Positions 9,945 to 31,757 are shown, counted from the first letter of the stretch. The stretch: DNA of 64,000 bases from Akkermansia muciniphila (GCA_945900785.1 CAMDJM010000004.1:15512-79511); one strand, 5' to 3'. The notes: generated by a model from the letters alone, not told the origin. Numbers and translations are program-made.

Positions 9945-9950
9945 GAGGAG

Positions 9951-14254: not shown

Positions 14255-15982
14255 CTATCCGCGCCGGCCTTTGAAGGTGAGTTCCGCGATGCCGGATTTG
14301 TCGAGTTCGCCGAGGTTGAGTTCGATCATGCGGTCGTATTGGGCGGCGGTGGCGGCGGCGAGGGGGAGGTTGAGGCCGGCGTCCTTGGCGAGGGAGAGGG
14401 CGATGTGGCTGTCCTTGGCGGCGTGGTCGGCGCGGAAGAAACAGGAGTGCTCGCGCTGGATCATGTCGTCGCCATCGGTCTGGAGGACGCGGCTGTTGGC
14501 TCCGGTGACGCTGAATACTTTGGCGAGCATTTCGAGGTCGAGGCCGAGGGCGGCTCCGAGGCCGAGGCCTTCGGCGAGGCCGGCAGTGTTGATGTTCATG
14601 ACCATGTTGACGAGGGCTTTGACCTTGGCGGCCTGACCGGCGGAGCCGACGTAGGTGAGGACGGCGCTCATGGTTTTGAGGAGGGGTTCGACTTTATGGA
14701 AGACTGCTTCCTGACCGCCGATCATGAGCTGGAGGGTGCCTTCGCGGGCCTGGGGGATGCTGGAGGCCATGCAGCCTTCGATGGTGCTGGCCCCGATGGC
14801 GGCGGCGGCCGTTTCGAGGTCGATGTGGACCTGCGGGGTGAGGGTGGCGCAGTTGAGGAAGGTCTTGCCAGCGGCTCCCATGAAGAGGTTGTCTTCCTGG
14901 TTATAAAAGATGGCCTTCATGGCTTCGTCGTTGGTGACGACGGTGAAGATGATGTCGGCCGCAGCGGTGACATCGGCGAGTTTAGTGCAGACGGTGGCTC
15001 CGATTTCGGCGGCGACTTCGGCGGCAGCTTCCGGGCTGACATCATAGACGGCGGTGACCTGATAACCGACTTCCCGGACGCGGCGGGCCATGTTGCCGCC
15101 CATGCGGCCGACTCCAACGAAGGCAATTTTTTCTTTCATGGCAGGATTGGTGGAGGGTTTGAATTCTGGATAGAAGGGGTTGTGGGCTTTTTCTTCGGCG
15201 ATGGTGGTGAGGGGGCCGTGGCCGGGGGCGACGATGGTTTCGCCGGGCAGGGAGAAGAGGCGGTGGCGGTTGTGGTCGAGGGCTTGAGCCCATGAGGTGC
15301 GGGGGCCGCCCATGGAGCCGGCGAAGAGGGCATCGCCCACGATGACGAGGGGGGCGGTGAGGCCGCCAATCACATAACTCATGCCGCAGGTGGCGTGGCC
15401 GGAGGTTTCGCGGGCTTCGAGGGTGAGGGCACCGATGGTGGCTTTAAAGCCGAGGTCGATGGGCTGGGAATCCGGGAGGTTTTCCCTACGGCCGCAGAGG
15501 ACGGTAGCATTTGGCCACGCGGCACGCAGGGCGGGCAGGGCGACAATGTGGTCGATGTGGGTGTGGGTGATGTAGATGTGTTCGATCTTCAGCCCGTGTT
15601 CAGCGACGGCAGCCAGGGTGGGGGCGGGATCGGTGCCGGTGTCGAAGAGGGCAGCGGCTTTGCTGACCGGATCGAAGACGATGTAGTGATTCACCGTCAT
15701 GTCATGTTCCGCGAAATAGGTGTTGAAGTGCAGCAGGCCTGCCAATTCCACTTCTGCAGGTTGCCAAGCCTTCCGGGCAAGGGCGAGCATGGAGGTGGGA
15801 TCGATCTGGAGGAGGGGGGCGACCTGGCGGAGCGGGCCTTCGAGGAGGGTTCCGGAAAGGAGTGAGGTCAGGGAGGCGACGGGGATGCCGGCACGGAAGG
15901 CGAGGTCTTCGCTGGTGAGGCCATGGCCTTTTTGGGCTTTGCCAAGGAGGTCTTCAAAATTGTCTTCGAGGGGCAGTTTCAT
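14255..15982 (-). CDS. three-module fusion: XRE-like HTH, MBL-fold metallo-hydrolase and NAD(P)-dependent beta-hydroxyacid dehydrogenase (HIBADH/6PGDH-type)
   Basis: 575-aa uninterrupted ORF. The N-terminal LTSEDLAFRAGIPVASLTSLLSG looks like an HTH. THTHIDH is the HxHxDH motif of the MBL fold. After an internal Met (complement ATG at 15139) comes MKEKIAFVGVGRMGGNMA, a Rossmann GxGxxG, followed by a HIBADH-like C-terminal half. Confidence 0.8.
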   Translation of the reverse strand: MKLPLEDNFEDLLGKAQKGHGLTSEDLAFRAGIPVASLTSLLSGTLLEGPLRQVAPLLQIDPTSMLALARKAWQPAEVELAGLLHFNTYFAEHDMTVNHYIVFDPVSKAAALFDTGTDPAPTLAAVAEHGLKIEHIYITHTHIDHIVALPALRAAWPNATVLCGRRENLPDSQPIDLGFKATIGALTLEARETSGHATCGMSYVIGGLTAPLVIVGDALFAGSMGGPRTSWAQALDHNRHRLFSLPGETIVAPGHGPLTTIAEEKAHNPFYPEFKPSTNPAMKEKIAFVGVGRMGGNMARRVREVGYQVTAVYDVSPEAAAEVAAEIGATVCTKLADVTAAADIIFTVVTNDEAMKAIFYNQEDNLFMGAAGKTFLNCATLTPQVHIDLETAAAAIGASTIEGCMASSIPQAREGTLQLMIGGQEAVFHKVEPLLKTMSAVLTYVGSAGQAAKVKALVNMVMNINTAGLAEGLGLGAALGLDLEMLAKVFSVTGANSRVLQTDGDDMIQREHSCFFRADHAAKDSHIALSLAKDAGLNLPLAAATAAQYDRMIELNLGELDKSGIAELTFKGRRG

Positions 15983-16021
15983 GATAGCGATGAAGTTGGG
16001 CTGATGGGGAATAGTCAGGTC

Positions 16022-17404
<1,383 letters not shown>

Positions 17405-17663
17405 GCTGGGATTGGTGGATTTAAAGATCTAGGGAGGGGGAAAGCGTTCTGGGTGCTGCGTTTTACGGGCGGCCCATCGAGGCCTAAGGGGGCGGGAAGC
17501 AGTGGGGGGCGCAATCGGAAAATGCCGGGAGACGAAGCTCTGAGCGGGCTGGAGGAGGCGGATCGAAGCTTGGTTTTGGGATTCAATCCTTAAGTCGGAT
17601 AAACCTTCAGCTTTCACTTAGCAGTATCAAATTTGCAAAAACGATCACTTTCGCAAAAAATAT

Positions 17664-17692
17664 TTGCATGACAGGGGTAGATACCTTATAAT
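17664..17692 (+). promoter_or_regulatory. near-consensus sigma70-type promoter for the 17735.. operon
   Basis: TTGCAT (17664-17669), an exact 17-nt spacer, then TATAAT (17687-17692). It lies in a conspicuous AT-rich island. Upstream A-tracts (tttgcaaaaa, tttcgcaaaaaa) look UP-element-like. Two ATCGAT palindromes at 17699-17704 and 17710-17715 sit just downstream. Confidence 0.55.
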
Positions 17693-17734
17693 TTCCAGAT
17701 CGATTAACTATCGATGTTCTGAAAGCACGAGGAA

Positions 17735-19520
17735 ATGTCTGGAAATTATCGTTATCTTGGTTGGCTGCTCCTGCTTTGGGGGATGCTGCTTTGTGGGGCG
17801 GTGGAAGCAGCGGGCGTGAAGACCTATAACAAGGTAGGCTTGGAGATGCAGTGGCGTTGGAAACAGGAAAAACTGGGATTTGGCGGCGGCATGGCCAGGG
17901 AGGGTTGGGACGTGACCCGGGCGGATTTTTTGGATATCCGGTTTGGCGCTGCGGCGGGCGGACGGCAGTTGGTTGGAAACCGGTGGCTGGCAGGCTTGTT
18001 TTAAAGGCGCCGAGGGCCGGACGTCGGCTTTTTTGGAAGGCGTGCCAGGTCAGGTGTTTACGGGGTTGAGGTTTGTGATAGGGCTGGATCAGGTATTGAA
18101 TGAAGCCGACCCGAATCTTTGGCCTGCAGGCCATGCGCTGCACCCCACGGTGAATGGACTGCACTGGGGCTGGCAGGGGGGCCACATTTTTATGGCGCTG
18201 GAAGGGCACCGGCAACTGGCGCAGGGCGGACCGGATGGGTTTTCCTATCACTTGGCCGGCACGGGGAATCAGATGACGGTGGTGCTGGAGCAGCCCTTGG
18301 ACCTCACCCGTGGCGGCACCATTGGCCTTGGCTTTGATGTGGCAAAAGTCCTGGAGGGACTGGCTCCGGATTTCGGCGCTTCAACTCATTCACGGGCCGG
18401 GGATGAACGGGCGGACGCGCTGCGGAAGCGGGTGGAGCAGGCTTTTGTGGTGACCGGGATCAGTCCGGAAATTTGGCAGGCAGTGCCCCTGGCGGAGCGG
18501 GTTGCCAGGAGTCAGGTTCCCGCCGGCACGCCGTGGCCGATGCAGATTTCCAGCCGTCTGCCCAAGGTGGTGCTGCCGGCGGACAATGTGCCGGTAGTGG
18601 CGGGAGTGGAGCTGGGCCGGCGGCTGTTTCAGGAGAAGCGGCTATCTGTCAATCAGACCCAATCGTGCGCTTCCTGTCACGATCAAAAGGCGGCTTTCAC
18701 GGATCCGGGGAAACGTTATAGTGTGGGGGCAGAAGGCCGGACCGGGACGCGCAATGCCATGCCCCTGTTCAATCTGGCCTGGCAGAGCGAGTTCTTCTGG
18801 GACGGCCGGGTGAAGCGTCTGCGGGATCAGGTGCTGGTGCCCCTGCAGGATCCGGTGGAGATGCACGGCTCGCTGGAGGCTGCCGTTCAGGTCTTGTCAG
18901 GAGATGCCGGCTACCGGGAGGATTTTGGAAAAGTGTTTGGTCCCGGCGGAGTGACAGCGGAACGCCTTGGACTGGCTCTGGAGCAGTATTTACTGACGCT
19001 GGTGTCACAGGATTCGAAGTTTGACCAGGCGGTGCTGGGCCGCGCCAAATTGAGCCCGCAGGAGCAGCGCGGACTGGAGTTGTTTATTACAGAGTATGAT
19101 CCGCCAAGGAATTTGCGTGGGGCGGATTGTTTCCATTGTCATGGGGGGAATCTGTTTTCGAATCAGGGCTTTTCCAATAACGGACTGGAGGCGGCCCCGG
19201 AAGCCGGGCGGCAGGCGGTGACCGGGCAGGCAGCCGATCAGGGGAAGTTCCGGGTGCCCTCCCTGCGCAACGTGGCCTTGACAGCTCCTTACATGCATGA
19301 TGGCCGTTTCTCGACCCTGGAGGAAGTGATCGACCACTACGATCATGGGGTGCATCCCTCACCCACGCTGGATCCCAACCTCGCTAAACATCCTGCCGCC
19401 GGCCTCGCTCTGCCGGCAGCAGACAAGGGTGCCCTGGTGGCTTTTCTGAAATCTCTATCAGATAGCCAGTTTCCGGATTCCCGCCCGGCGGCTTCCATTT
19501 CATCCATTTCCAAGCCATGA
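17735..19520 (+). CDS. secreted MbnP-like domain fused to a di-heme cytochrome c peroxidase (MauG/MbnH-like); apparent 1-nt frameshift near 17940
   Basis: ORF 17735..18004 encodes a signal peptide (MSGNYRYLGWLLLLWGMLLCGAVEA) and the start of the domain (...WDVTRADFLDIR). ORF 17943..19520 continues in the next frame (LALRRADGSWLE...GLRFVIGLD...HPTVNGLHWGWQGGHIFMALEG). Removing one T from cgg-ttt-ggc joins them seamlessly. The heme motifs are CASCH (18666-18680) and CFHCH (19128-19142), and the tail reads PSLRNVALTAPYMHDGRFSTLEEVIDHY. Confidence 0.75.
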
Positions 19521-22500
19521 ATAAATCCAGAATTTTCGCTGCGACCCTCGCAGGGATGGTCACCTCCTTTCCAGCCAACACTGTCCATGCGGATGTGACC
19601 CATGCCCAGGACGATGCGTTTTATGCAGCGGCGGCGGCCCTGCTGCCGTCCTTCCAGGGCGTGCCGGCTCCCGTGAATCCAGCGGAGTCGGTGAATGCGG
19701 GTGCCTGGGCTGCTCCCATCAATTTTCCCCACGTGCCGGTGACCGCAGCGAATCTGCCGGATGGCCGCATCCTGACTTATGCTTCCAATCAGCGGACTTC
19801 GTTTCCGGCCGGCCCTGAATTTACCTATGCCGCGGTGTGGAATCCCAGCACCAACACCATCACGGAGATCAACTGGAACCAGCATGACATGTTCTGCGGG
19901 GGAACCGTATTGCGCTCGGATGGCCGGTTTCAGGTGATGGGAGGACGCAATATTGTTAGGTCCTCCAGTATCTTCAATTGGCAAACCAATGCCTGGAGCC
20001 GCACGGCGGACATGAACGATCCCCGCTGGTATACTTCTTCCGCGATCCTGCCAGGCGGGGATGTGTTTACGCTGTCAGGCAGTGGCGGCGACAATACCGC
20101 CGAGCGCTTCAATGGCACCTCATGGCGGAAGTTTTCCAATATCAACTGGAGCCCTGTCGCCAGCCAGGCCGTGATCGAGGCCAACTGGACACCGATGATT
20201 TTCCTGGCTCCGGATGGACGGCTGTTCCATGCGGGTCCTACCAAAACCATGAATTGGGTGAACCCGGAGGGCAATGGCCTCATCAACACTTCCGGGGCGG
20301 TCTATCCTGGAACCTGGTATCCCAAGGATGCTGCCATTGTGATGTATGAGCCGGGCAAACTCCTCGTCGCGGGCGGCCTCGCCACGGGAACGGCGGAAAC
20401 GCCCACCAACCTGGCCTGTAAAATCGATCTCTACACCGATCCGCCCACCGTGACGCCCCTGCCAGCTATGGCGAACCTCCGGCGGTTTTCCAACGGCATC
20501 GTGCTGCCCACGGGGGAGGTCCTTGTGATGGGAGGCAATACGTCCGGCCAGAAATTCAGCGATGCCGGTTCCTTCCTGGCTGCTGAAATCTGGAATCCCC
20601 GCACCGGTCTCTGGCGCACCGTGGCCAGTCAGGCGGTGCCCCGGAACTATCACTCGGTCGCCCTGCTCCTGACGGATGGGAAAGTCATGTCAGGAGGCAG
20701 TGGGCTCGCCGGCAATGCGGCGGTGGATCACAGCAATATCGAAGTTTACAGCCCGCCCGCGCTGTTCACCGGCACGGGCCAGGCTGCGGTGCAGCCCTCC
20801 CTCACAGCGGCACCTTCCACCATCGGCTCCACCGGGCGCTTTACCGTCCAGGGCACCGCAGGGCTGTTGCGCTTTGCCATGATCCGGATGGCCTCCACGA
20901 CCCACGGACTTTCCACGGACCAGCGGTATTTCAGCCCGGCCTTTGCCGAAACCGCCCCCGGCAGCTACGAACTGTCCCCGCATGATAACATCAATGTGAT
21001 GAATCCCGGCTATTGGATGCTCTTTGGGGTGGATGCCAATGGCGTGCCCTCCCGGGCCCGCGTGATCCTCGTCAGCGCCACCGCCACCGTCGCATTGCCT
21101 GGGGTCAATCTCGCGCTGGGCAAGGCGACCTCCCAATCCTCCAACTTCGATGGTAGCCTGACCTCCAACCGGGCGGTGGATGGGGTCACCAATGGTGATT
21201 TTGGGGTCGCACCAGGGGTGCATACCCAGTCCGAAGCCAATGCTTGGTGGCAGGTGGATCTGGGGGCGGTCTATCCGCTGAATGCGGTGCGCATTTTCAA
21301 CCGGGGCAATAACCTCGGGTCCCACCTGACGGATTTTTCGGTTCATGTCAGCAATTTTCCGTTTGATGATGCCAACACGGATACCACCAGCTACCGCTAC
21401 CTGAGCACGCCCGGGCCGGAGACGGTGGTCAATCTCTACCGCAGCGCCCGCTACCTGCGCGTCCAGCTCAATGGGACCAACTTCCTGCAACTGGCCGAAG
21501 TCCAGGTGATGGGGACCAATGCACCGGTCACTGGAGTCGTGGTGCAAAACCCGGGACCGCAGTATAGCCCCCGGCTGGGCACGGTCAGCTTCCTTCCTGC
21601 TGCCACCGCACCCAGCCCGGTGACCTGGACTGCCACCGGCCTGCCGGCAGGACTCAATATCGATGCCGGCACCGGCCGTATCACCGGCACCCCCACCACC
21701 CTGGGGGATCAAACTGTGACCCTCACCGCAGCCATGGCCAATGGCGTGAATAACAGTCAGTCCTTCCTATGGACGGTTCATGCTCCCGGGGAAGTCCCCG
21801 GCCTGACCTACCGGTATTATGAAGGATCGTGGACTGTCCTCCCTGACTTCAGTTTGCTGACACCGCTGCGTTCCGGGGTGGTGCCGGCGTTCTCCATCGC
21901 GCCACGGGAGCGGGAGAGCAATTACGCCCTGACCTTTGAGGGGAATCTGCGCATCCCCACCGCCGGGACCTGGACTTTCTACAGCAACTCCGACGATGGC
22001 AGCCAGGTCTGGATCGATGGCCGCCTGGTGGTGAATCATGATGGCGTGCACACCGCCAGTGAAGCCAATGGCAGCATCACCCTGCCAGCCGGGGTGCACC
22101 GCATCACGGTGGCTTATTTCCAGAGCACGGGGACGATGGGGCTCGACGTGAGCTATGCCGGCCCGGGCACCGCCAGGCAGCCCATCCCTGTGAATGCGCT
22201 CTACCAGCCATTGCCTGGAGTGCGTTTTGACTATTACGAGGGCGTATGGAATGCGCTGCCTAACTTTAATTCCCTTGTTCCGTTCCTTTCGGGCGATACA
22301 GACACCTTCAATCTTGCCGGGAGGCTCAGGGATGACAATTTCGCAATGCGCTTCCGTGCCTCCCTGCGCACTCCGGTGGCTGGCAGCTACACCTTTTATA
22401 CCGCCTCCGACGATGGCAGCCGTCTCCTGATTGATGGTGCGGTGGTGGTGAATAATGATGGCCTTCATGCCACGGCGGAGCAGCAGGGGACGGTAAACCT

Positions 22501-25500
22501 AACGGATGGCGTTCATGATATTGAAGTGCAGTTTTTCGAACAGGGCGGCGATCAGGTGCTGGTGGTGAGTTATGCCGGACCGGGTCTCACGCGGCGCGTG
22601 ATTCCGGAGAGCGTCCTCGCCGCGCCCGGTGTCCCTGGCACCGCGCCCGTGGTGACGGCTCTGGCTGCCCGCACGACTTTGAAGGGGACGGCGGTTTCAG
22701 TGCCTGTGATCGGCACAGATGCCAACAATGATCCCCTGAGCTATTCCGCCAGCGGCCTGCCCACCGGTTTGGGCATCAATGCCAGCACGGGCCTCATTTC
22801 CGGCACCCCCACGACGGCGGGCAGCTTCGCCGTCACCGTGACCGTGAATGATGGCACGGGCCGGAATGGCAGCACTTCGTTCAATTGGACCATCGTCAAT
22901 CCCCTGACGCTTTCTCCCATGACGGCTGTTGCCCGGCCGGCCGGCACAGCGATCAGCTATAGCGCGATTTCCACCGGGGGACTGAATCCGAAATTCCGTT
23001 GGAATTTTGGCGATGGCACCGGTGACACCGTGGCCAGCAGCAGCTTGGTCATCTCCAGGACCTTTGCCCAGCCGGGACGTTATCAGATCTCGGTGATTGC
23101 CTCGGATGATAGCGGAGCAAATCTCGCCCAGGTCTTTATCCAGGCGGTCCACGGGACCCTCGCCGCCACGCCTCCGGTAAGTTCCAGCCCCCTGGCATGG
23201 CAGACCAGGACCGGAGTGAACCGGATCTGGGTGGTGAATCCCGATGCCAATTCCGTCAGTGTGTTCAACGCGGCCACCAATGCCAAACTGGCGGAAACGG
23301 CCGTAGGCCTCCAGCCCGTCAGCGTCGCCATTGCGCCGGATGGCCGGGCCTGGGTGGTGAATAAAAAGTCCGCCACCATCAGCCTGCTCAATCCTGACAC
23401 CTTCGCCGTGGCGGCCACGGTTTCCTTGGCAAGGGCCTCACAGCCGCATGGTCTCGCCTTTGCCCCCAATGGCGGCGCGGCTTTCCTTGCCCTGGAAGGG
23501 ACGGGCCAGTTGTTGAAACTGAACCCAGCTACCGCCGCTATCACCGGCACCCTGGCGGCCGGGCCGGATGTCAGGCACCTTTCTGTCAGTGCAGACAGCG
23601 GCAAGGTTTACCTCTCCCGGTTTATCACGCCGGCGCTGCCGGGCGAATCCACGTCCGTGGTGCAATCCACCGTGGGATCGGTGAATCACGGGGGACAGGT
23701 CCTCGTGGTGACAGCGGCATCCATGGCCCTGTCAAAAACCATCATCCTGCAGCACAGCGAACGCCCGGATGCGGAAAATGCCGGACGTGGTATTCCCAAT
23801 TATCTCGGCCCTCCCGTGCTGTCGCCGGATGGCACGGCGGCGTGGGTTCCTGGCAAGCAGGATAACATTAAGCGAGGGGTGCTGCGGGACACCCGGCAGT
23901 TGGGGCACGATTCCACGGTGCGGGCCATCAATTCCCGCATCAATACCCTGACCGATACTGAGGACTACGCCTCCCGGATTGACTTCGACGATTCTGCGGT
24001 GCCGTCCCATGCCGTCTTCGATCCCACCGGATTGTTGCTCTACGCGGCCATGGAAGGCAGCCGCCAGGTGGCGGTGGTGGATGCCATGGCCCGCAGCGTC
24101 CTTTTCAAAATCGATGCCGGGCGGGCTCCCCAGGGGCTGGCGCTTTCGCCGGATGGGACCCGCCTCTTTGTGCAAAACTTCATGGACCGCACGGTGCAGG
24201 CCTTTGATCTGACTGTTCTGGTGAATGGCGGGCGTCCCGCCGGTTCGGATATTACACCGGTGGCCACCTGGAACACCGTCGCCGTGGAGCCGCTGCCGGC
24301 CAATATCCTGACTGGGAAACGCTTCTTCTACGATGCCCGGGATCCGCGGATTTCCCTGCAAAGTTATATCAGCTGTGCGGCCTGTCACAATGATGGCGGC
24401 CACGATGGCCGCGTCTGGGATTTCACCGGCATGGGCGAAGGTCTGCGCAATACCACCGACCTGCGCGGCAAAGCCGGCACCGGGCAGGGGCCCGCCCATT
24501 GGACGGGAAATTTTGATGAGGTCCAGGACTTCGAAAAACAAATCCGTGATCTCGGACGCGGCACCGGATTGATGGCGGACAGTGACTTCAATGCTGGCAC
24601 CCGCAGCCAACCACTGGGCGCGCCCAAGGCAGGACTGAGTGCCGATCTCGATGCCCTCGCGGCCTATGTCAGTTCCCTGACTGCTGCGGTCCCCAGCCCC
24701 AACCGGAATGCCGATAGTTCCCTCACTGCTGCTGCCGTGGCCGGACGGGAGGTCTTCCGCAGTGCCAACTGCGCCCAGTGCCACAGCGGCACGGGATTCA
24801 CCAACAGCGCCCTGAATAACCTGCGGAACATCGGCACCATCAAGCCTTCCAGTGGTCAGCGTCTCGGAGCTGTCCTGACTGGATTGGACACGCCGACACT
24901 CCGGAGCCTGTGGAACACGGCACCCTATTTGCATGATGGATCCGCCGCCACCCTCACCGCCGCCGTGCAAGCCCACCAGGGGGTTACCCTGACACCGGCC
25001 AAACTGGTCAGCCTTGTCGCCTATCTGGCCCAAGCCGATGACGCCGAAACCACCGCGCCGGTCCCTGCTGTCACTGGGGGGAGCGGTCCAGGCCTGTTGG
25101 GCGAATACTTCCCGGGGATGACTCCAGGCGTGGCGGCACCGGTCCTGACGCGCACCGATCCTGGCATTGATTTCGATTGGGGGGGCGGTTCCCCCGGGCC
25201 TGCGGTGCCGGTGGATAACTTCTCCGCCCGCTGGACGGGGTTCATTACGGCCGCCTACAGCGAAACCTACACGTTCTTTGTGCCCTCCGACAATGGTGTG
25301 CGGGTCTGGATCAATAACCAACTGGTGCTGGACAAATGGACTCCGCTCGACATTGCCGCCTGGCACAATTTCACCCTGCCGATGACGGCGAATCAGGCAG
25401 TTCCCCTAAAAGTGGAATATGCCGAACTGTCCGGCGGTGCGAATATCACCCTGTTCTGGTTCAGCAATACCCAGCTTTGGGAAAGTGTTGGCGCCAACCG

Positions 25501-26815
25501 CCTGAGCACCGGTCCGGCGGTGAACCGGGAACCGCTCCTGACCACGCCTGCCGCCCAATCCACGGTGCGCGGCCGCGCCGCCTCCCTCACGGTGCAGGCC
25601 AGCGATCCTGACTTCAATCCCCTGACTTATTCAGCCGCCGGTTTGCCGGCCGGCCTGTCCATCAGCAGCACCAGTGGACTCATCTCCGGCACCGTCACCC
25701 TGACGGCATCGTCTTCCCATACCGTCAGCCTGACTGTTTCCGATGGCACCCTTTCCGCCACCACCTCCTTTGCCTGGAGCACCACGGCTCCGCCCGCGAA
25801 CCGGGCTCCGGTGTTGAACAATCCAGGCACCCAGTCAGCGGTGCGGGGTTCTGTGGTCGTCCTGCGGCCACTGGCTTCGGATCCGGATTCCGATCCCCTG
25901 ACATGGAGCGCGGTGGGCCTGCCCCCGGGCCTGACCCTGAATGTCACGACCGGCCAGATCTCCGGGATTCTGGATAGCAATGCGGCTGCTGCCTACACGG
26001 TTTCCCTTGCGGTGCAGGACCCAGGTGGCCTGACTTCCAATGCCACCTTCATCTGGAATACGACAGCGCCGCCTATCAATGGGCTGCGGGGTGAATATTT
26101 TGGCGGCATGGAGCCCGGAGTGGGTGCCCCTCTGCTGGTCCGCACGGATGCCACGATCAACTTTGACTGGGGCGGGGGATCGCCCAGTCCCGCCGTTCCG
26201 GTGGATTATTTCTCCGCCCGCTGGACCGGCACCCTGACCGCTCCCTTCACTGAAACTTACACTATCTATGTGCCGTCGGACAATGGGGTGCGGGTTTGGA
26301 TCAATAACCAATTGGTGCTCGACAAGTGGACGCCCCTGGACATCTCGGGATGGCATAATTTCACGATCAATCTAACCGCTGGTCAGGTCGTGCCGGTCAA
26401 GGTGGAATATGCTGAACTCTACGGCGGGGCCGGCATCACGCTCTACTGGTTCAGTCCCAGCCTGCCATGGGAGGTCATCGCCTCCAGCCGTCTCAGCCCT
26501 GCGGTCACGGTGACGCCAGGATCCTCCTCCGGGGCGTTGGAAATGGTGCAGGCGACCCAGCGGATGACGGCTTCACAGGGCCATCTCTTCTTCACTTTCA
26601 GGCGTCCCTCCTCTTCCGCTGCTGAAGTCGCGATCCTGGTGCAGAGCAGCAGCGATCTGAAGCAATGGAGTCCTGTCAATTTGCCGGCCCAGGTGGTGCA
26701 GTCGCTGGATGGCATGGATGAAATCAGGATTGCGGTGCCGCCCCCCGCCGGTCCGGAGGGAGCCCATTATTTCCGGCTCCAACTGGTGACGCCGGATCCC
26801 GTGGCGGATCCCTGA
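19517..26815 (+). CDS. giant secreted multidomain protein: galactose-oxidase-type copper radical oxidase, lectin/PA14/Ig/PKD modules, beta-propeller and a di-heme peroxidase domain
   Basis: 2432-aa ORF whose ATG overlaps the upstream stop (ATGA at 19517-19520). The signal peptide is MNKSRIFAATLAGMVTSFPANTVHA. Approximate domain map from motifs:
- galactose-oxidase-like propeller plus Ig-like domain, 19.70-21.08 kb (HDMFCGG Cys codon 19895; WY 20027-20032; YH 20648-20653; TTH 20897-20905);
- F5/8-type-C lectin, 21.10-21.52 kb;
- Ig-like, 21.54-21.78 kb;
- PA14 x2, 21.80-22.61 kb;
- Ig-like, 22.64-22.89 kb;
- PKD, 22.89-23.14 kb;
- YVTN-type beta-propeller, 23.2-24.3 kb;
- CCP/MauG-like domain, 24.3-25.03 kb (CAACH 24374-24388, CAQCH 24770-24784, TAPYLHDGS);
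- PA14, 25.09-25.51 kb;
- Ig-like x2;
- PA14, 26.08-26.50 kb;
- C-terminal beta module. Confidence 0.88.
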   Translation: MNKSRIFAATLAGMVTSFPANTVHADVTHAQDDAFYAAAAALLPSFQGVPAPVNPAESVNAGAWAAPINFPHVPVTAANLPDGRILTYASNQRTSFPAGPEFTYAAVWNPSTNTITEINWNQHDMFCGGTVLRSDGRFQVMGGRNIVRSSSIFNWQTNAWSRTADMNDPRWYTSSAILPGGDVFTLSGSGGDNTAERFNGTSWRKFSNINWSPVASQAVIEANWTPMIFLAPDGRLFHAGPTKTMNWVNPEGNGLINTSGAVYPGTWYPKDAAIVMYEPGKLLVAGGLATGTAETPTNLACKIDLYTDPPTVTPLPAMANLRRFSNGIVLPTGEVLVMGGNTSGQKFSDAGSFLAAEIWNPRTGLWRTVASQAVPRNYHSVALLLTDGKVMSGGSGLAGNAAVDHSNIEVYSPPALFTGTGQAAVQPSLTAAPSTIGSTGRFTVQGTAGLLRFAMIRMASTTHGLSTDQRYFSPAFAETAPGSYELSPHDNINVMNPGYWMLFGVDANGVPSRARVILVSATATVALPGVNLALGKATSQSSNFDGSLTSNRAVDGVTNGDFGVAPGVHTQSEANAWWQVDLGAVYPLNAVRIFNRGNNLGSHLTDFSVHVSNFPFDDANTDTTSYRYLSTPGPETVVNLYRSARYLRVQLNGTNFLQLAEVQVMGTNAPVTGVVVQNPGPQYSPRLGTVSFLPAATAPSPVTWTATGLPAGLNIDAGTGRITGTPTTLGDQTVTLTAAMANGVNNSQSFLWTVHAPGEVPGLTYRYYEGSWTVLPDFSLLTPLRSGVVPAFSIAPRERESNYALTFEGNLRIPTAGTWTFYSNSDDGSQVWIDGRLVVNHDGVHTASEANGSITLPAGVHRITVAYFQSTGTMGLDVSYAGPGTARQPIPVNALYQPLPGVRFDYYEGVWNALPNFNSLVPFLSGDTDTFNLAGRLRDDNFAMRFRASLRTPVAGSYTFYTASDDGSRLLIDGAVVVNNDGLHATAEQQGTVNLTDGVHDIEVQFFEQGGDQVLVVSYAGPGLTRRVIPESVLAAPGVPGTAPVVTALAARTTLKGTAVSVPVIGTDANNDPLSYSASGLPTGLGINASTGLISGTPTTAGSFAVTVTVNDGTGRNGSTSFNWTIVNPLTLSPMTAVARPAGTAISYSAISTGGLNPKFRWNFGDGTGDTVASSSLVISRTFAQPGRYQISVIASDDSGANLAQVFIQAVHGTLAATPPVSSSPLAWQTRTGVNRIWVVNPDANSVSVFNAATNAKLAETAVGLQPVSVAIAPDGRAWVVNKKSATISLLNPDTFAVAATVSLARASQPHGLAFAPNGGAAFLALEGTGQLLKLNPATAAITGTLAAGPDVRHLSVSADSGKVYLSRFITPALPGESTSVVQSTVGSVNHGGQVLVVTAASMALSKTIILQHSERPDAENAGRGIPNYLGPPVLSPDGTAAWVPGKQDNIKRGVLRDTRQLGHDSTVRAINSRINTLTDTEDYASRIDFDDSAVPSHAVFDPTGLLLYAAMEGSRQVAVVDAMARSVLFKIDAGRAPQGLALSPDGTRLFVQNFMDRTVQAFDLTVLVNGGRPAGSDITPVATWNTVAVEPLPANILTGKRFFYDARDPRISLQSYISCAACHNDGGHDGRVWDFTGMGEGLRNTTDLRGKAGTGQGPAHWTGNFDEVQDFEKQIRDLGRGTGLMADSDFNAGTRSQPLGAPKAGLSADLDALAAYVSSLTAAVPSPNRNADSSLTAAAVAGREVFRSANCAQCHSGTGFTNSALNNLRNIGTIKPSSGQRLGAVLTGLDTPTLRSLWNTAPYLHDGSAATLTAAVQAHQGVTLTPAKLVSLVAYLAQADDAETTAPVPAVTGGSGPGLLGEYFPGMTPGVAAPVLTRTDPGIDFDWGGGSPGPAVPVDNFSARWTGFITAAYSETYTFFVPSDNGVRVWINNQLVLDKWTPLDIAAWHNFTLPMTANQAVPLKVEYAELSGGANITLFWFSNTQLWESVGANRLSTGPAVNREPLLTTPAAQSTVRGRAASLTVQASDPDFNPLTYSAAGLPAGLSISSTSGLISGTVTLTASSSHTVSLTVSDGTLSATTSFAWSTTAPPANRAPVLNNPGTQSAVRGSVVVLRPLASDPDSDPLTWSAVGLPPGLTLNVTTGQISGILDSNAAAAYTVSLAVQDPGGLTSNATFIWNTTAPPINGLRGEYFGGMEPGVGAPLLVRTDATINFDWGGGSPSPAVPVDYFSARWTGTLTAPFTETYTIYVPSDNGVRVWINNQLVLDKWTPLDISGWHNFTINLTAGQVVPVKVEYAELYGGAGITLYWFSPSLPWEVIASSRLSPAVTVTPGSSSGALEMVQATQRMTASQGHLFFTFRRPSSSAAEVAILVQSSSDLKQWSPVNLPAQVVQSLDGMDEIRIAVPPPAGPEGAHYFRLQLVTPDPVADP

Positions 26816-26892
26816 CCTGGGTATCCTCTTCCATCCGGGAAAAGCAGGGATTTCCGGTTTCCAAAGCCGCCGTTTTCTGGGAGAGGGGGAGC

Positions 26893-28380
26893 ATGTCTGC
26901 GCTCCCCCCTGCTTACTCCCATCTCCGTGCCCGATTCCGCGAAGCCGCGCTGCTGCGCTCGACGGAAGGCGTGCTGGGCTGGGATCAGGAAACGGGGATG
27001 CCGGCCAAGGCGGTGGCGTGGCGGGCCGGGCAGATGTCCTATCTGTCAGGGCAGGTGCATCGTCTCACCACCGCACCGGAAGTCGGTGCCTGGCTGGCGG
27101 CGTGTGAAGCGCAGGGCACGGCCAGCGGGGCCGCGGCGGTGAATCTCCGGGGTTGGCGGCGGGACTATGACCGGGAGACAAAGCTGCCGGCGGAACTGGT
27201 GGAGGAATTTTCCCTGACTACTTCTGCCGGGATGCATGCCTGGGCGGCTGCGCGGAAGGCGTCGGATTTTGCCGCCTTCCAACCCGTCCTCGAAAAGCTG
27301 GTGCGCCTTTGCCAGGAAAAAGCCGATCATCTGGGCTGGACCTCCTGCCGTTATGATGCGCTGATGGACATCTATGAACCCGGAGCCCGCAGTGCGGATA
27401 TCGGGGCCTTGTTTGCCGACCTGGGACCCCGGATCGCGGCGATGATCGGGCCGGCCGTGGAAAAGGCGAAGTCCCAGCCGGCGGATCTGCTGGCTGGTCA
27501 CTATCCGATCGCCGCCCAGCAGGCCTTCAACCGTGAGGTGGCGGAAGCCATTGGCTTTGATTTTGAGGCTGGCCGGATTGATACCACCACCCATCCGTTC
27601 TGCACCGGCCTGGGGCCAGGCGATACCCGGCTGACGACCCGTTATGATGAGGCCGATTTTTTCAGCTCGCTCTATGGGGTGCTGCACGAGGCGGGCCATG
27701 GTTTGTATGATCAGGGACTGCCGGCGGATGAGTGGGGCCTGCCTGCCGGTGAAGCGGTTTCCCTGGGCATCCATGAGAGCCAGAGCCGGCTCTGGGAAAA
27801 TCACATCGGTGGCAGCGATGCCTTTTGGCGGCATTGGCATCCCCGGGCCTCTCATCATTTTGCAGGATTGAACGCCTTCACGCCGGAGCAGGTCGCCGCC
27901 GCGGCCCGTCAGGTTTCGCCCTCCTTCATCCGGGTGGAGGCCGATGAGGTGACCTATGACCAGCATATCATTCTGCGGTTTCAGTTGGAGCGCTCGCTCA
28001 TCAATGGCGATCTGGCGGTGCGCGATGTGCCGGAAGCCTGGAACGCCGGCTTCAGGGAACTGTTGGGCCTTACGGTTCCTGACGATGCCCGGGGCTGTCT
28101 CCAGGACATCCATTGGAGCATGGGCAGCCTCGGTTATTTCTGCACGTATTCCCTGGGAAATCTGAATGCCTCGCAACTGATGCGTGCCGCGCGCGGGGCC
28201 ATGCCCTCGCTGGATGCGGACCTGGAGCGTGGGGTCTATCAAAACCTGCTCGCCTGGCTGCGCACCCACATTCACTCCGCCGGCCGTAGCCTGGATCCCC
28301 AGGACCTGATGGTGCAGGCCACCGGCGGGCCCACCCGGGCCGAGTATCACCTGGACTACCTGAAAGACAAATTTTTGTAG
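26893..28380 (+). CDS. carboxypeptidase Taq-type (M32) metallopeptidase
   Basis: 495 aa. It contains the HExxH motif LHEAGHGLYDQG, plus HESQSRLWEN and IRVEADEVTY. Confidence 0.92.
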   Translation: MSALPPAYSHLRARFREAALLRSTEGVLGWDQETGMPAKAVAWRAGQMSYLSGQVHRLTTAPEVGAWLAACEAQGTASGAAAVNLRGWRRDYDRETKLPAELVEEFSLTTSAGMHAWAAARKASDFAAFQPVLEKLVRLCQEKADHLGWTSCRYDALMDIYEPGARSADIGALFADLGPRIAAMIGPAVEKAKSQPADLLAGHYPIAAQQAFNREVAEAIGFDFEAGRIDTTTHPFCTGLGPGDTRLTTRYDEADFFSSLYGVLHEAGHGLYDQGLPADEWGLPAGEAVSLGIHESQSRLWENHIGGSDAFWRHWHPRASHHFAGLNAFTPEQVAAAARQVSPSFIRVEADEVTYDQHIILRFQLERSLINGDLAVRDVPEAWNAGFRELLGLTVPDDARGCLQDIHWSMGSLGYFCTYSLGNLNASQLMRAARGAMPSLDADLERGVYQNLLAWLRTHIHSAGRSLDPQDLMVQATGGPTRAEYHLDYLKDKFL

Positions 28381-28424
28381 GAAAAACCGGGCGCGGTGCC
28401 GCTTCCTGAAAAATTATACCCCTG

Positions 28425-28979
28425 ATGGAACCTGATCCCCCCACCTTGCAAGGCCATCTGCTCCTGGCAGATCCGTCGCTGCGGGCCTCGTGGTTCGGGC
28501 GTTGTGTGATCCTGATTACCAGCCATGTGCAAGGGAAGGGCACCCAGGGTTTTGTGCTGAACCGCCCGGTAGAAGGCCGTGTTTTGGAGGATCTCCTGCC
28601 ATCCCCGGATTTCAAGCACCTGCGCCGGGTGCCGGTTTACGAAGGCGGCCCCGTCGCTCCGAATGAGATGATCCTCATGGCCCTGCGCTGGAATGAAGCC
28701 AGCGGCACCATGGAATCGAAATCCCCCCTGGGCATCGCCGGGGCCACCCGCGCCCTCGCGGATGGCTGGGAAGTCAGGGCGTTTACCGGATACACCGGTT
28801 GGGGCGCAGGGCAGTTGGAGGGAGAGTTGAAGGAATCCTCCTGGATCATTGCCCGGCCCATCCCAACTGCGCTGACCGGCCCTGCCGGTCCTGACTTGTG
28901 GGCCGCAGTGCTGCGCAGTGGGGAGGATCCCCGGCAGGCACTGCTGGCGGGTCTTCCCGATGATCCCGGGCTGAACTAA
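28425..28979 (+). CDS. YqgE/AlgH family protein
   Basis: 184 aa. It contains GHLLLADPSL, GFVLNRP, VYEGGPV and GYTGWGAGQLEGELKESSW. Confidence 0.88.
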   Translation: MEPDPPTLQGHLLLADPSLRASWFGRCVILITSHVQGKGTQGFVLNRPVEGRVLEDLLPSPDFKHLRRVPVYEGGPVAPNEMILMALRWNEASGTMESKSPLGIAGATRALADGWEVRAFTGYTGWGAGQLEGELKESSWIIARPIPTALTGPAGPDLWAAVLRSGEDPRQALLAGLPDDPGLN

Positions 28980-29169
28980 ATCAGGAATTCGGTCCCGCCA
29001 CGGCATGCTGCCAGTCCCATGCGGAGGGTGGCGCTTCCTCTTGATCCTTCAGGATGTGGATTTTGCAGAGGATTTGTTCTGGACAATAATGATTTGGGCA
29101 TGTTGATTTTCGCGGCTATTTGAAGGGTTTTCCCCTCATTGCCGGATTTCCTCATTATCATTTCCATCC

Positions 29170-30585: not shown

Positions 30586-30735
30586 GGAGCAGAAGAGGAC
30601 GCCGGTGGCGGTGACGGTGGCGGAGCGGAAGAGGACGCTGGTGGCGGCGACGACGGCGGCGGAGCGGAAGAGGATGCTGGCGGCGGTGACTGCGGCGGAG
30701 CAGAAGAGGATGCCGGCGGCGGTGACGACGGCAAC
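30586..30735 (+). repeat. four tandem 36/39-nt repeats, in frame with the preceding gene
   Basis: The units start at 30586, 30622, 30661 and 30697 (ggagc[a/g]gaagagga[c/t]gc.gg.ggcgg.gac...). In the frame of the 29170 gene they read GAEEDAGGGDGG / GAEEDAGGGDDGG / GAEEDAGGGDCG / GAEEDAGGGDDGN and stop at the TGA at 30736-30738. Confidence 0.9.
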
Positions 30736-30771
30736 TGATTCACCTTACAGATTCACAGATGCACTGCAGCG

Positions 30772-30806
30772 AGCGGCGGAGTCCAGACACTCCGCCGCTC
30801 TTTTTT
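30772..30806 (+). terminator. rho-independent terminator
   Basis: agcggcggag (30772-30781) pairs perfectly with ctccgccgct (30790-30799) across an 8-nt loop. It is followed by cttttttgg. It lies downstream of the repeat extension, not of the annotated TGA. Confidence 0.8.
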
Positions 30807-31630: not shown

Positions 31631-31757
31631 GGGGATATAAAATGCAATCTTGAGTTGGTGGGCAGGGTTTCCTGGGGAGGGGCAAGGGATTAACAGATAA
31701 AAAAACAGCGCCATCCCTTGGACGGGATGGCGCTGAAGGATTCATGGAAGCAGGGAA

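What the first reader, a model, noticed from the sequence alone, without database searches (positions are those of the whole stretch)
17664..26815. Two-gene operon coupling an MbnP/MbnH-like fusion to a giant galactose-oxidase-family protein
Seen in the sequence:
- A near-consensus promoter lies in an AT-rich island.
- The first gene carries a signal peptide, an MbnP-like domain and two CxxCH heme motifs.
- Its stop overlaps the ATG of the giant gene (ATGA at 19517-19520), implying co-transcription and translational coupling.
- The giant protein opens with a copper-radical-oxidase domain that keeps every cofactor residue I can align.

Established knowledge: MbnH-type di-heme (MauG-like) peroxidases convert a Trp of their partner MbnP into kynurenine to build a copper site. 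These pairs are usually linked to copper acquisition.

Inference: here the pair is fused into one chain and wired to a copper enzyme rather than to a transporter. It could therefore be a dedicated copper-delivery or cofactor-maturation module for an extracellular oxidase. I am not aware of that arrangement having been described.
Basis: partly seen in the sequence, partly recalled or inferred. Interest (0 to 1): 0.78.

Follow-up and report, generated by a model that had tools for sequence, protein, structure and literature searches.

The report
Copper oxidase operon with MbnPH partner
A Verrucomicrobia-type bacterium carries a tightly coupled gene pair: a fused copper-binding/di-haem "MbnP-MbnH" protein, broken by a one-base frameshift in this genome, followed by a 2,432-residue secreted copper-radical (galactose-oxidase-like) enzyme with its own built-in di-haem module. 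The pairing recurs in many relatives and looks like a new bacterial version of the known oxidase-plus-helper theme.

Summary
The domains and the ATGA overlap are real, but gene 1 is not one ORF here. An extra G at 17932/17933 separates the signal peptide (17735-17932) from the MbnP/MbnH body (17934-19520). A second assembly shows the same base. With the G removed, the 594-aa protein matches Pfam MbnP (1e-22) and CCP_MauG (3e-53). Its best solved relatives are M. trichosporium MbnH and MbnP. It keeps the WxW motif and the MauG Tyr294 equivalent.

The giant keeps all five galactose-oxidase cofactor residues.

MbnP-MbnH fusions are common in Verrucomicrobiota and already annotated. Most follow a YHYH-domain gene. 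A single clade precedes this oxidase, across Verrucomicrobiales, Pedosphaera/Limisphaerales and Opitutaceae. In 27 pairs the gap is -20 to +66 nt, and 15 of them have the exact ATGA overlap. About 40% of oxidase orthologs lack the partner nearby.

My best reading is that the fusion is an accessory factor that loads copper and/or oxidatively activates the oxidase. This parallels Streptomyces GlxA-Sco-DtpA and the fungal peroxidase-AlcOx tandems. The function itself is untested. I rate it a new variant of a known kind.

The parts
17663..17692 (+). Sigma-70-like promoter (-35 TTTGCA/TTGCAT, -10 TATAAT at 17687-17692)
   Evidence: It is the best consensus match in 17300-29200 (10/12) and lies in a GC 0.34 island. 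The -10 and the TTG of the -35 are invariant in L001, L002 and L003.
17729..17733 (+). Shine-Dalgarno-like GAGGA just upstream of the gene 1 ATG (17735)
   Evidence: Read directly from the sequence. This is an inference only.
17735..17932 (+). Gene 1, part A: signal peptide (MSGNYRYLGWLLLLWGMLLCGAVEA) and the first MbnP strands, in frame 1
   Evidence: ORF list. It aligns to the N-termini of the intact relatives.
17932..17933 (+). GG where relatives have a single G: a 1-bp insertion causing a +1 frameshift, directly after a T6 run (17926-17931)
   Evidence: DNA alignment with L001 and L002. The base is identical in the Logan assembly L086.
17934..19520 (+). Gene 1, part B: the rest of the MbnP domain, a linker and the MbnH (MauG-like di-haem) domain, through to the stop codon
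   Evidence: On the repaired protein, Pfam gives MbnP at aa 33-209 (E 1e-22) and CCP_MauG at aa 290-436 (E 3e-53), and TIGR04039 MbnH scores 227 bits. The best PDB hits are MbnH 6e1c and MbnP 7l6g.
18165..18173 (+). WxW motif (W144-G-W146) of the MbnP domain, the candidate kynurenine precursor
   Evidence: It is invariant in the fusions and aligns to the WxW of 7L6G. The role of WxW/Kyn174 is taken from PMC11951088.
18666..18680 (+). First haem-binding motif, CASCH (aa 311-315)
19128..19142 (+). Second haem-binding motif, CFHCH (aa 465-469)
19338..19340 (+). Tyr535, the equivalent of MauG Tyr294 (axial ligand of the six-coordinate haem)
   Evidence: It aligns to residue 294 of the MauG chains and to the matching Tyr of MbnH 6e1c. 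It is invariant in relatives.
19517..19520 (+). ATGA: the gene 1 stop overlaps the start codon of the giant gene
   Evidence: The same 4-nt overlap occurs in 15 of 27 orthologous pairs.
19517..26815 (+). Giant gene, 2,432 aa, with a signal peptide (aa 1-25, ...NTVHA/DV)
   Evidence: Relatives L001 and L002 encode proteins of the same length.
19685..21076 (+). Copper-radical-oxidase catalytic domain plus E-set domain (aa about 57-520). Cofactor residues: C127 (19895), Y172 (20030), Y378/H379 (20648-20653), H463 (20903)
   Evidence: PDB galactose oxidases match at E 8e-79 (9g8h) and 6e-58 (1gof), with all five residues aligned. The residues are invariant in 9 orthologs. Pfam hits: Glyoxal_oxid_N, Kelch_6 and GO-like_E_set.
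21131..23131 (+). Carbohydrate-binding and spacer block: F5/8 type C (aa 539-657), He_PIG, two PA14/GLEYA domains, PKD
   Evidence: Pfam. In orthologs this block is replaced by legume-lectin, H-lectin or PA14 modules.
23132..24286 (+). YVTN/YncE-like beta-propeller (aa about 1206-1590)
   Evidence: PDB 1l0q at 7e-30. Also TIGR02276 and Pfam YNCE.
24308..25006 (+). Internal di-haem CCP-superfamily module (CAACH at 24374-24388, CAQCH at 24770-24784, PYLHDG motif)
   Evidence: Hydrazine synthase gamma 5c2v_C at 1.5e-12 and bacterial CCPs at 3e-10. Pfam CCP_MauG scores 28 bits against a cut-off of 25.6. The module is conserved at 55-70% identity in orthologs.
25184..26812 (+). C-terminal PA14 - He_PIG x2 - PA14 block, plus about 118 aa with no family match
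   Evidence: Pfam
26855..26879 (+). Weak terminator-like hairpin plus T-tract after the giant gene
   Evidence: The number of such sites in the region is not above chance.

Best explanation
This is a promoter-driven, translationally coupled two-gene unit for a secreted copper enzyme and its dedicated helper.

Gene 2 encodes a Sec-exported, 2,432-aa copper-radical oxidase. It carries lectin-like targeting modules, and a beta-propeller plus di-haem peroxidase-superfamily module sits on the same chain. It most likely oxidises a glycan or other alcohol at the cell surface and releases H2O2.

Gene 1, in its intact form, encodes an exported MbnP-MbnH fusion. By analogy with M. trichosporium MbnPH, its MauG-type di-haem half uses H2O2 to convert a Trp of the WxW motif in its own MbnP half into kynurenine, which creates a copper site. 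The matured fusion then serves the oxidase by handing it copper, by performing the one-electron oxidation that produces the active Cu(II)-tyrosyl radical state, or both. H2O2 made by the oxidase would feed the haem modules.

Shown here: domain identities, cofactor residues, the conserved adjacency and overlap, and clade-specific co-inheritance.
Inferred: kynurenine formation, copper transfer, radical activation, the substrate and the cellular location.

In this particular genome the helper gene carries a recent 1-bp frameshift and is probably not made in functional form.
For: Domain identities:
- Pfam MbnP at 1e-22 and CCP_MauG at 3e-53.
- The best solved relatives are MbnH 6e1c (8e-45 by sequence; Foldseek 7.5e-18) and MbnP 7l6g (Foldseek 1.1e-9, probability 1.0).
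- The WxW motif is invariant.
- The MauG Tyr294 equivalent is kept, so the haem domain is of the protein-oxidising type rather than the H2O2-detoxifying type.
- The oxidase keeps C127, Y172, Y378, H379 and H463 in all 9 orthologs examined.

Coupling of the two genes:
- The oxidase lies directly downstream of the fusion in genome loci L003-L006, L008 and L036, from three verrucomicrobial lineages, and in metagenome contigs L001 and L002.
- About 24-27 of about 45 metagenome loci with an orthologous oxidase also show the pair.
- Gaps range from -20 to +66 nt, and 15 of 27 pairs have the exact ATGA overlap.
- Outside close relatives the flanking genes differ: fumC is found only in L001-L003 and L087.
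- Oxidase-linked fusions form one clade, distinct from the YHYH-linked fusions.
- Both genes are under purifying selection (dN/dS 0.125 and 0.08).

Precedents:
- The Streptomyces copper-radical oxidase GlxA needs the copper chaperone Sco and the haem peroxidase DtpA to mature (PMC4736821).
- Fungal alcohol oxidases of this class are encoded next to a peroxidase that activates them by one-electron oxidation (PMC9770985, PMC12951238).
- MbnH makes Kyn174 in MbnP to build a copper site (PMC11951088).
Against: - No experiment or structure here links the two proteins physically.
- About 15-18 orthologous oxidase loci with 2-8 kb of upstream sequence have no MbnP-MbnH gene. Where sampled, their upstream neighbours are housekeeping genes or ORFs with no family match. 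The helper is therefore dispensable, replaceable or encoded elsewhere.
- The oxidase already has an in-cis di-haem module that could do the activating on its own.
- The MbnP domain is only marginally similar in sequence to characterised MbnP (E 0.03-0.05). It lacks the four-Cys motif (one Cys) and is far below the TIGR04052 cut-off. Its copper ligands could not be mapped.
- In this genome the gene is frameshifted while the oxidase is intact, so the oxidase may work without it.
Confidence: 0.55

Rival explanations
1. In this genome gene 1 is a recently inactivated pseudogene. The frameshift detaches the signal peptide, so the haem domains cannot be exported or matured. The oxidase functions alone or with a helper encoded elsewhere.
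For: There is one extra G relative to two relatives, and a second assembly is identical. ORF 2 starts without a signal peptide. Many orthologous oxidases lack the partner nearby.
Against: dN/dS of 0.125 and the absence of any other lesion mean the change is very recent or is an error in the reads. Both assemblies may derive from the same reads. The T6 run directly upstream could allow a low level of +1 slippage, which would give ...ADFWISG....
Confidence: 0.55
2. The dependency runs the other way. The pair is a copper-acquisition device in which the oxidase mainly supplies the H2O2 that the MauG-type haems need to make or maintain the kynurenine-copper site, and the MbnP domain passes copper on to the cell rather than to the oxidase.
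For: MbnH-type enzymes need H2O2 (PMC11951088) and copper-radical oxidases make it. MbnP/MbnH and MopE/CorA systems are linked to copper uptake (PMC3621798, PMC11951088).
Against: A 2,432-aa lectin-decorated enzyme is an extravagant source of peroxide. No transporter is linked to the pair. Kynurenine formation is a one-off modification. The oxidase occurs widely without the fusion.
Confidence: 0.12
3. The MbnH half acts on the giant protein itself, installing or repairing a modified residue there as MauG does on pre-methylamine dehydrogenase, and the fused MbnP half is a docking or copper-sensing domain.
For: The haem domain is MauG-type, with the Tyr294 equivalent kept. The two genes are co-inherited as a clade.
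Against: The Tyr-Cys cofactor of galactose oxidases forms autocatalytically with copper and O2 (established knowledge). The WxW target is kept in cis. No candidate target motif was found in the giant.
Confidence: 0.08
4. The adjacency has no functional meaning: two secreted redox proteins happen to share a promoter, and the arrangement was inherited by descent.
For: About 40% of orthologous oxidases lack the fusion upstream. Most fusions sit next to other genes.
Against: The pair persists down to 45% identity of the fusion and about 49% identity of the oxidase domain, while flanking genes change. The 4-nt overlap is retained in 15 of 27 pairs. The linked fusions are a distinct clade.
Confidence: 0.08

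Closest known systems
MbnP / MbnH of Methylosinus trichosporium OB3b (PDB 7L6G, 6E1C)
   Same: The MbnP fold and WxW motif are shared. The partner is likewise a di-haem MauG-type enzyme with a Tyr-ligated haem. These are the best structural and sequence relatives in the PDB for both halves.
   Different: - Here the two proteins are fused in one chain.
- The MbnP half is very divergent (15% identity, no four-Cys motif, below the TIGR04052 cut-off).
- The genomic partner is a copper-radical oxidase rather than a methanobactin or TonB-transporter cluster.
Streptomyces lividans GlxA with Sco/ECuC chaperones and the DyP peroxidase DtpA (PMC4736821)
   Same: A bacterial secreted copper-radical oxidase whose maturation depends on a copper-supplying protein and a haem peroxidase that uses the oxidase's H2O2.
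   Different: - The helper families are unrelated (Sco and DyP there, MbnP and MauG-like di-haem here).
- The helpers there are separate proteins rather than one fused, translationally coupled protein.
- The giant is not a GlxA ortholog (NF052501 scores 149 bits against a cut-off of 800).
Fungal tandem peroxidase-alcohol oxidase pair (Colletotrichum/Magnaporthe; PMC9770985, PMC12951238)
   Same: A copper-radical oxidase is encoded next to a dedicated haem peroxidase. The pairing is conserved, the peroxidases form a distinct clade, and the peroxidase activates the oxidase by one-electron oxidation.
   Different: - That system is eukaryotic, with head-to-head genes and a mono-haem class II peroxidase, and has no copper-binding module.
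- Here the system is bacterial and operonic with an overlap, uses c-type di-haem domains, and has a further di-haem module fused to the oxidase.
Galactose oxidase of Fusarium graminearum and other AA5_2 oxidases (1GOF, 9G8H)
   Same: A seven-bladed kelch domain plus an E-set domain. The Cys228, Tyr272, Tyr495, His496 and His581 equivalents are all present.
   Different: - The stacking Trp290 has no aligned counterpart.
- The domain sits at the N-terminus of a 2,432-aa chain with PA14, F5/8C and He_PIG modules, a beta-propeller and a di-haem module.
- The substrate is unknown.
MopE/CorA with the MauG-like CorB of methanotrophs
   Same: A surface or secreted kynurenine-copper protein paired with a di-haem MauG-like enzyme (PMC11951088, PMC3621798).
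   Different: The copper protein has a different fold. The two are not fused, and no oxidase partner is involved.
Hydrazine synthase beta/gamma subunits (5C2V)
   Same: The architecture of a beta-propeller followed by a CCP-superfamily di-haem domain. This is the best named match for the giant's internal module.
   Different: The similarity is weak (64 bits against a cut-off of 1250). Nothing suggests anammox chemistry. Here the module is fused to a copper oxidase.

Membership tests
MbnP family (Pfam PF20243) | Match to the family HMM above the curated cut-off | tested here: met
   81.4 bits against a cut-off of 27, E 1e-22, aa 33-209 of the repaired protein.
MbnP family (NCBIfam TIGR04052 equivalog, 'MbnP_like_WxW') | Score above the equivalog cut-off | tested here: not met
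   24.6 bits against a cut-off of 140. The domain is a divergent relative, not an equivalog.
MbnP family | Conserved WxW motif containing the Trp that becomes kynurenine | tested here: met
   HW144GW146QGG is invariant in relatives and aligns to AWNWQAG of 7L6G.
MbnP family | Four-Cys motif (the depositors named 7L6G a 'four-Cys motif protein') | tested here: not met
   The domain has a single Cys (C88) in aa 28-250.
MbnP family | MbnP fold | tested here: met
   The AF2 model of P0001 (89% identical; MbnP part pLDDT 80-95) hits 7l6g_B with Foldseek E 1.1e-9, probability 1.0 and TM(target) 0.49. The test was done on the relative, not on the window protein itself.
MbnP family | Kynurenine formation and copper binding (His, Met, Kyn ligands) | not testable with these tools
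   The ligand positions could not be mapped at 15% identity. Mass spectrometry and metal analysis are needed.
MbnH / MauG-like di-haem enzymes | Two c-type haem motifs in a CCP_MauG fold | tested here: met
   CASCH at 311 and CFHCH at 465. PF03150 scores 181 bits against a cut-off of 25.6.
MbnH (NCBIfam TIGR04039) | Score above the curated cut-off | tested here: not met
   227 bits against a cut-off of 362.85. It is nevertheless the best-scoring NCBIfam model.
MbnH / MauG-like di-haem enzymes | Tyr axial ligand (MauG Tyr294) instead of the Met of canonical peroxidases | tested here: met
   Tyr535 aligns to residue 294 of the MauG chains and to the corresponding Tyr of MbnH 6e1c. It is invariant in 34 relatives.
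MbnH / MauG-like di-haem enzymes | bis-Fe(IV) chemistry on a protein substrate | not testable with these tools
   Spectroscopy is required.
Copper radical oxidases (AA5; galactose/glyoxal oxidase) | Cys-Tyr cross-link pair, axial Tyr and two His copper ligands | tested here: met
   C127, Y172, Y378, H379 and H463 align to C228, Y272, Y495, H496 and H581 of 1GOF-type chains. They are invariant in 9 orthologs.
Copper radical oxidases (AA5) | Kelch beta-propeller plus C-terminal E-set domain | tested here: met
   Glyoxal_oxid_N 40.7 bits, Kelch_6 39 bits and GO-like_E_set 58.6 bits, all above their cut-offs. PDB galactose oxidases match over aa 57-520.
Copper radical oxidases (AA5_2 galactose oxidase proper) | Stacking Trp290 over the Tyr-Cys cofactor | tested here: not met
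   The position falls in a gap of the alignments to 9g8h and 2eid. A Trp precedes Y172 instead (RW171Y).
GlxA (NCBIfam NF052501 equivalog) | Score above the equivalog cut-off | tested here: not met
   149.5 bits against a cut-off of 800.
Bacterial di-haem cytochrome c peroxidase superfamily (internal module of the giant) | Two CxxCH motifs, the PYxHxG motif and a CCP_MauG HMM match | tested here: met
   CAACH at 1620, CAQCH at 1752 and PYLHDG at 1813. PF03150 scores 28 bits against a cut-off of 25.6, which is marginal. PDB CCPs match at 3e-10.
Operon / translational coupling | Same strand, overlapping stop and start, conserved across relatives | tested here: met
   ATGA at 19517-19520. The gap is -4 nt in 15 of 27 orthologous pairs, and all gaps lie between -20 and +66 nt. 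Co-transcription itself was not tested.

The most novel reading that the evidence does not exclude
The pair is a self-contained extracellular redox machine not yet described in bacteria. A lectin-targeted copper-radical oxidase would pass its own H2O2 to an in-cis beta-propeller/di-haem module, for a second oxidative step on the substrate or for self-activation. A dedicated MbnP-MbnH fusion would combine, in one polypeptide, the two helper functions that Streptomyces splits between Sco and DtpA: copper insertion through a kynurenine-copper site, and haem-driven generation of the tyrosyl radical. If so, MbnP-type kynurenine-copper proteins would be metallochaperones for secreted cuproenzymes in general, with the YHYH-domain partners as a second client class, rather than parts of copper import.
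Probability: 0.25. Interest if true: 0.8.

Novelty: new variant of a known kind. Interest (0 to 1): 0.6.

Why it matters
- The physiological role of MbnP/MbnH pairs outside methanobactin operons is still open. A conserved, translationally coupled link to a defined copper enzyme offers a concrete client and a testable assay: copper loading, Tyr-Cys cross-link formation and radical activation of the oxidase domain, with and without the fusion.
- It extends the 'copper-radical oxidase plus helper peroxidase or chaperone' theme, known from Streptomyces and from plant-pathogenic fungi, to Verrucomicrobiota with unrelated protein families.
- It exposes a widespread, uncharacterised architecture (copper-radical oxidase, beta-propeller and di-haem module on one chain) in several bacterial phyla. 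This could interest work on glycan oxidation and biocatalysis, where copper-radical oxidases currently need added peroxidase for activation.
- For this particular genome the finding is weaker, because the helper gene is frameshifted.

Tried and rejected
- Frameshift repair. I first repaired the frameshift by deleting a T from the T6 run, which gives ...ADFWISG.... The DNA alignment with relatives shows the extra base is a G, and removing it gives ...ADFLISG..., which matches the family consensus.
- PDB entry 6e1c. I first took it to be BthA. The entry title shows it is MbnH, and BthA is 6nx0.
- Key MbnP/MbnH papers. The Manesis 2021 and 2023 papers are not held, so the copper ligand positions of MbnP could not be transferred.
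- Profile search of the MbnP domain against the PDB. This gave no better alignment than the single sequence (E 0.048).
- YHYH domain. A literature search found nothing relevant and there is no solved relative.
- Literature search for di-heme + galactose oxidase + MauG. It returned 0 papers. A search on copper radical oxidase + Verrucomicrobia returned nothing relevant.
- Search for an alternative helper upstream of oxidase orthologs that lack the fusion. I found only housekeeping genes (topoisomerase IV/gyrase subunit A, exonuclease VII) or ORFs with no family match.
- Second copies in the window. There is no second MbnP-MbnH, oxidase or YHYH copy.
- Neighbouring genes. The window neighbours (fumarase C, a metallo-beta-lactamase/NAD-binding protein, M32 carboxypeptidase, an AlgH-like protein) are unrelated housekeeping genes.
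- ORF 15923-17593 (+). It is the antisense shadow of fumC.
- Stand-alone propeller/di-haem proteins. Their neighbours (a GMC oxidoreductase, dioxygenases) gave no clear lead.

Full report
**1. What is in the sequence**

The interval holds two same-strand ORFs downstream of a 130-bp AT-rich gap (GC 0.34 against about 0.6). That gap separates them from a divergent fumarase C gene (16022-17404, minus strand).

The best sigma-70-like match in 17300-29200 lies in this gap (17663-17692, TTTGCA-18-TATAAT, 10/12). The total number of such matches in the region is not above chance. However, the -10 element (TATAATTTCCAGA) and the TTG of the -35 are invariant in three relatives whose gene 1 proteins are 64-89% identical, while the 17-nt spacer varies in sequence. 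I therefore accept the promoter as likely.

The ATGA overlap at 19517-19520 is as described.

**2. Gene 1 is frameshifted here**

It is split into an 89-aa ORF carrying the signal peptide (17735-18004) and a 525-aa ORF (17943-19520) in another frame.

- Alignment with the orthologous DNA of two metagenome relatives shows TTTTTTGGATATCC in the window against TTTTTT-GATGTCC. That is one extra G at 17932/17933.
- Removing it restores ...RADFLISGLALRR..., which matches the family consensus ADFLxSGLALRR.
- The same extra G is present in an independently built Logan assembly of run ERR5863116. That assembly is 100% identical to window 16520-32815, and its gene caller splits the gene in the same way.
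- Apart from this base the gene looks healthy. dN/dS against the 89% relative is 0.125, compared with 0.08 for the giant and 0.035 for fumC.

The lesion is therefore either very recent or an error in the reads. If it is real, the haem-containing body has no signal peptide and cannot be matured. A +1 slip on the preceding T6 run is conceivable but unsupported.

**3. What gene 1 encodes**

The repaired 594-aa protein has the following features.

- It matches Pfam MbnP (aa 33-209, 81 bits, cut-off 27) and CCP_MauG (aa 290-436, 181 bits).
- The best NCBIfam model is MbnH TIGR04039 (227 bits, below its cut-off of 363). The MbnP equivalog TIGR04052 scores only 24.6 bits against a cut-off of 140.
- By sequence, the C-terminal half is closest to M. 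trichosporium MbnH (6e1c, 8e-45), then to bacterial peroxidases and MauG.
- Tyr535 aligns with MauG Tyr294 and with the corresponding Tyr of MbnH. This marks the protein-oxidising MauG type rather than the Met-ligated peroxidases.
- The N-terminal half is only marginally similar in sequence to MbnP 7L6G (E 0.03-0.05), although the WxW motif aligns.
- An AlphaFold model of the 89%-identical relative (MbnP part pLDDT 80-95) matches 7L6G by fold (Foldseek 1.1e-9, probability 1.0, TM 0.49, 15% identity).
- The domain has one Cys, so the 'four-Cys' feature of the characterised protein is absent.

It is thus a genuine but divergent MbnP-family domain fused to an MbnH-type enzyme.

**4. What the giant encodes**

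From N- to C-terminus the domains are:

- Signal peptide.
- Copper-radical-oxidase domain (aa about 57-520). It matches solved galactose oxidases at 8e-79 (9g8h) and 6e-58 (1gof). C127, Y172, Y378, H379 and H463 align to C228, Y272, Y495, H496 and H581 and are invariant in nine orthologs. The stacking Trp290 has no counterpart. The protein is not a GlxA equivalog.
- F5/8 type C, He_PIG, PA14 and PKD modules.
- Further PA14 and He_PIG modules, and about 118 residues with no family match.

Across orthologs from other verrucomicrobial orders the lectin and Ig modules are swapped (legume lectin, H-lectin, YDG/MBG). The oxidase domain and the propeller/di-haem module are retained.

The propeller/di-haem module is 50-60% identical to modules in proteins from Proteobacteria, Acidobacteria, Chloroflexi and Myxococcota. 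Many of these also carry the oxidase E-set domain. The oxidase-propeller-di-haem architecture is therefore widespread and, as far as I could find, uncharacterised.

**5. How special the fusion is, and how conserved the adjacency is**

MbnP-MbnH fusions of about 600 aa are abundant. One search returned 3,292 hits at E <= 1e-10. Nearly all of the top 120 carry both Pfam domains, most of those that carry a source name are named as Verrucomicrobiota, and some are named 'MbnP family protein' by NCBI. Fusions also occur in Bacteroidota. The fusion is not new as a database object.

I examined 37 fusion loci: L001 and L002 from metagenome contigs, and L003-L037, most of which are labelled Verrucomicrobiota.

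- Eight have the oxidase immediately downstream: L001-L006, L008 and L036. They span Verrucomicrobiales/Verrucomicrobiaceae, Pedosphaera/Limisphaerales and Opitutaceae, with gene 1 identity down to 45%.
- In about 17 others the fusion lies directly downstream of, or close to, a gene for a roughly 590-aa YHYH-domain (PF14240) protein, sometimes fused to a sulfatase domain.
- In a neighbour-joining tree the oxidase-linked fusions form a single clade. One nested member, L007, has no oxidase nearby.

I then searched from the oxidase side in metagenomes.

- About 24-27 of about 45 loci with an oxidase domain at >=42% identity have the fusion directly upstream.
- About 15-18 loci with enough upstream sequence do not. 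Where sampled, their upstream neighbours are housekeeping genes or ORFs with no family match.
- In 27 pairs the gap between the fusion's stop and the oxidase's start is -20 to +66 nt. Fifteen of them show the exact ATGA overlap.
- Flanking genes are shared only among close relatives.

The pairing is therefore a selected, probably co-translated unit in one lineage of fusions. It is frequent rather than obligatory for the oxidase.

**6. Mechanism**

Established knowledge:

- MbnH, a MauG-like di-haem enzyme, converts Trp174 of the WxW motif of MbnP into kynurenine. This is required for copper binding (PMC11951088).
- Copper-radical oxidases need copper for autocatalytic Tyr-Cys formation, and then a one-electron oxidation to the active radical state. 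The latter is typically provided by a peroxidase (PMC12951238).
- In Colletotrichum and Magnaporthe the activating peroxidase is encoded next to the oxidase (PMC9770985).
- In Streptomyces, maturation of GlxA requires the copper chaperone Sco and the haem peroxidase DtpA, which uses GlxA-derived peroxide (PMC4736821).

The verrucomicrobial fusion contains, in one chain, a candidate copper-handling domain and a haem enzyme built for long-range protein oxidation. It is coupled to a copper-radical oxidase that produces the peroxide such haems consume.

I therefore favour an accessory role, meaning copper loading and/or radical activation, with confidence 0.55. I cannot separate the two sub-functions with these data.

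The in-cis di-haem module may be the primary peroxide sink or activator. That would fit the fact that many orthologs do without the fusion.

The rival readings are given separately with their weights. They are a reverse dependency (the oxidase as peroxide source for copper acquisition), modification of the giant by MbnH, and meaningless adjacency.

**7. Verdict**

- Observation: partly confirmed. The frameshift and the second di-haem module were missed.
- Interpretation: partly supported. The family assignments and the synteny hold. 'Fusion is unusual' and 'instead of a transporter' do not hold. Copper delivery is plausible but untested, and it competes with peroxidase-type activation.
- Novelty: a new variant of a known kind, namely a copper-radical oxidase with a dedicated helper and an MbnPH-type kynurenine-copper system. 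The genomic link is not found in the searchable literature.
- Interest: 0.6.

Noticed in passing
L009, L012, L014-L021, L023, L024, L030, L031, L034, L035 (upstream of, or close to, the fusion gene): In Verrucomicrobiota the usual neighbour of MbnP-MbnH fusions is a roughly 590-aa YHYH-domain (PF14240) protein, typically encoded directly upstream. It is sometimes fused to a sulfatase domain (L015, L024), and sometimes a second, short YHYH gene lies downstream (L012, L023). No literature or solved relative was found. This may be a second 'client' class for these fusions.
   Followed up: partly
window 23132-25006 (giant aa about 1206-1830); proteins P0241-P0360: The beta-propeller plus di-haem module is 50-60% identical to modules in proteins from Gammaproteobacteria, Burkholderiales, Polyangiaceae, Caldilineaceae, Blastocatellia and Vicinamibacterales. 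Many of these also carry the galactose-oxidase E-set domain. This is a widespread, uncharacterised oxidase-propeller-di-haem architecture.
   Followed up: partly
L167 7001-9037; L169 7001-9046: Stand-alone 680-aa propeller/di-haem proteins (51% identical to the giant's module) sit among genes for a GMC oxidoreductase, protocatechuate dioxygenase, a Mo-hydroxylase and a carboxymuconolactone-decarboxylase-family protein.
   Followed up: no
window 24950-24964 (giant aa about 1812-1831, APYLHDG...AVQAH): At the position 14 residues after the PYxHDG histidine, where MauG has Tyr294 and canonical peroxidases have Met, the internal di-haem module has a His that is at least 80% conserved in 39 orthologs. 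This hints at a bis-His haem.
   Followed up: partly
L085 8001-15545: An oxidase ortholog (47% identical, fragmented by assembly frameshifts) is followed, not preceded, by a separate CCP_MauG gene with no detectable MbnP domain.
   Followed up: partly
L001 4100-4180: The gene caller's start for P0001 omits the signal peptide. The ATG of the window is ATA in L001, but an in-frame ATG two codons upstream (ATG GAA ATA CCC...) restores a signal peptide.
   Followed up: partly
window 15923-17593 (+): This 556-aa ORF is the antisense shadow of fumarase C (16022-17404, minus strand) and is not a gene.
   Followed up: yes
window 26459-26812 (giant aa about 2315-2432): The C-terminal ~118 residues, ending ...HYFRLQLVTPDPVADP, match no Pfam or NCBIfam family. 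They may be a sorting or anchoring domain.
   Followed up: no
window 45198-50468 (+) and 9051-11456 (+): Two other large putative secreted redox proteins lie in the window. One is a 1,756-aa protein with DUF7133, HEAT, cytochrome c and ThuA domains. The other is an 801-aa protein with two DM13 'electron transfer' domains.
   Followed up: no
window 17926-17931: A T6 run lies directly before the frameshifting G. A +1 ribosomal or transcriptional slip there would restore the frame, giving ...ADFWISG.... L001 has the same T6 run, while L002 has TTTTCT, so the run is not specific to the frameshifted allele.
   Followed up: partly
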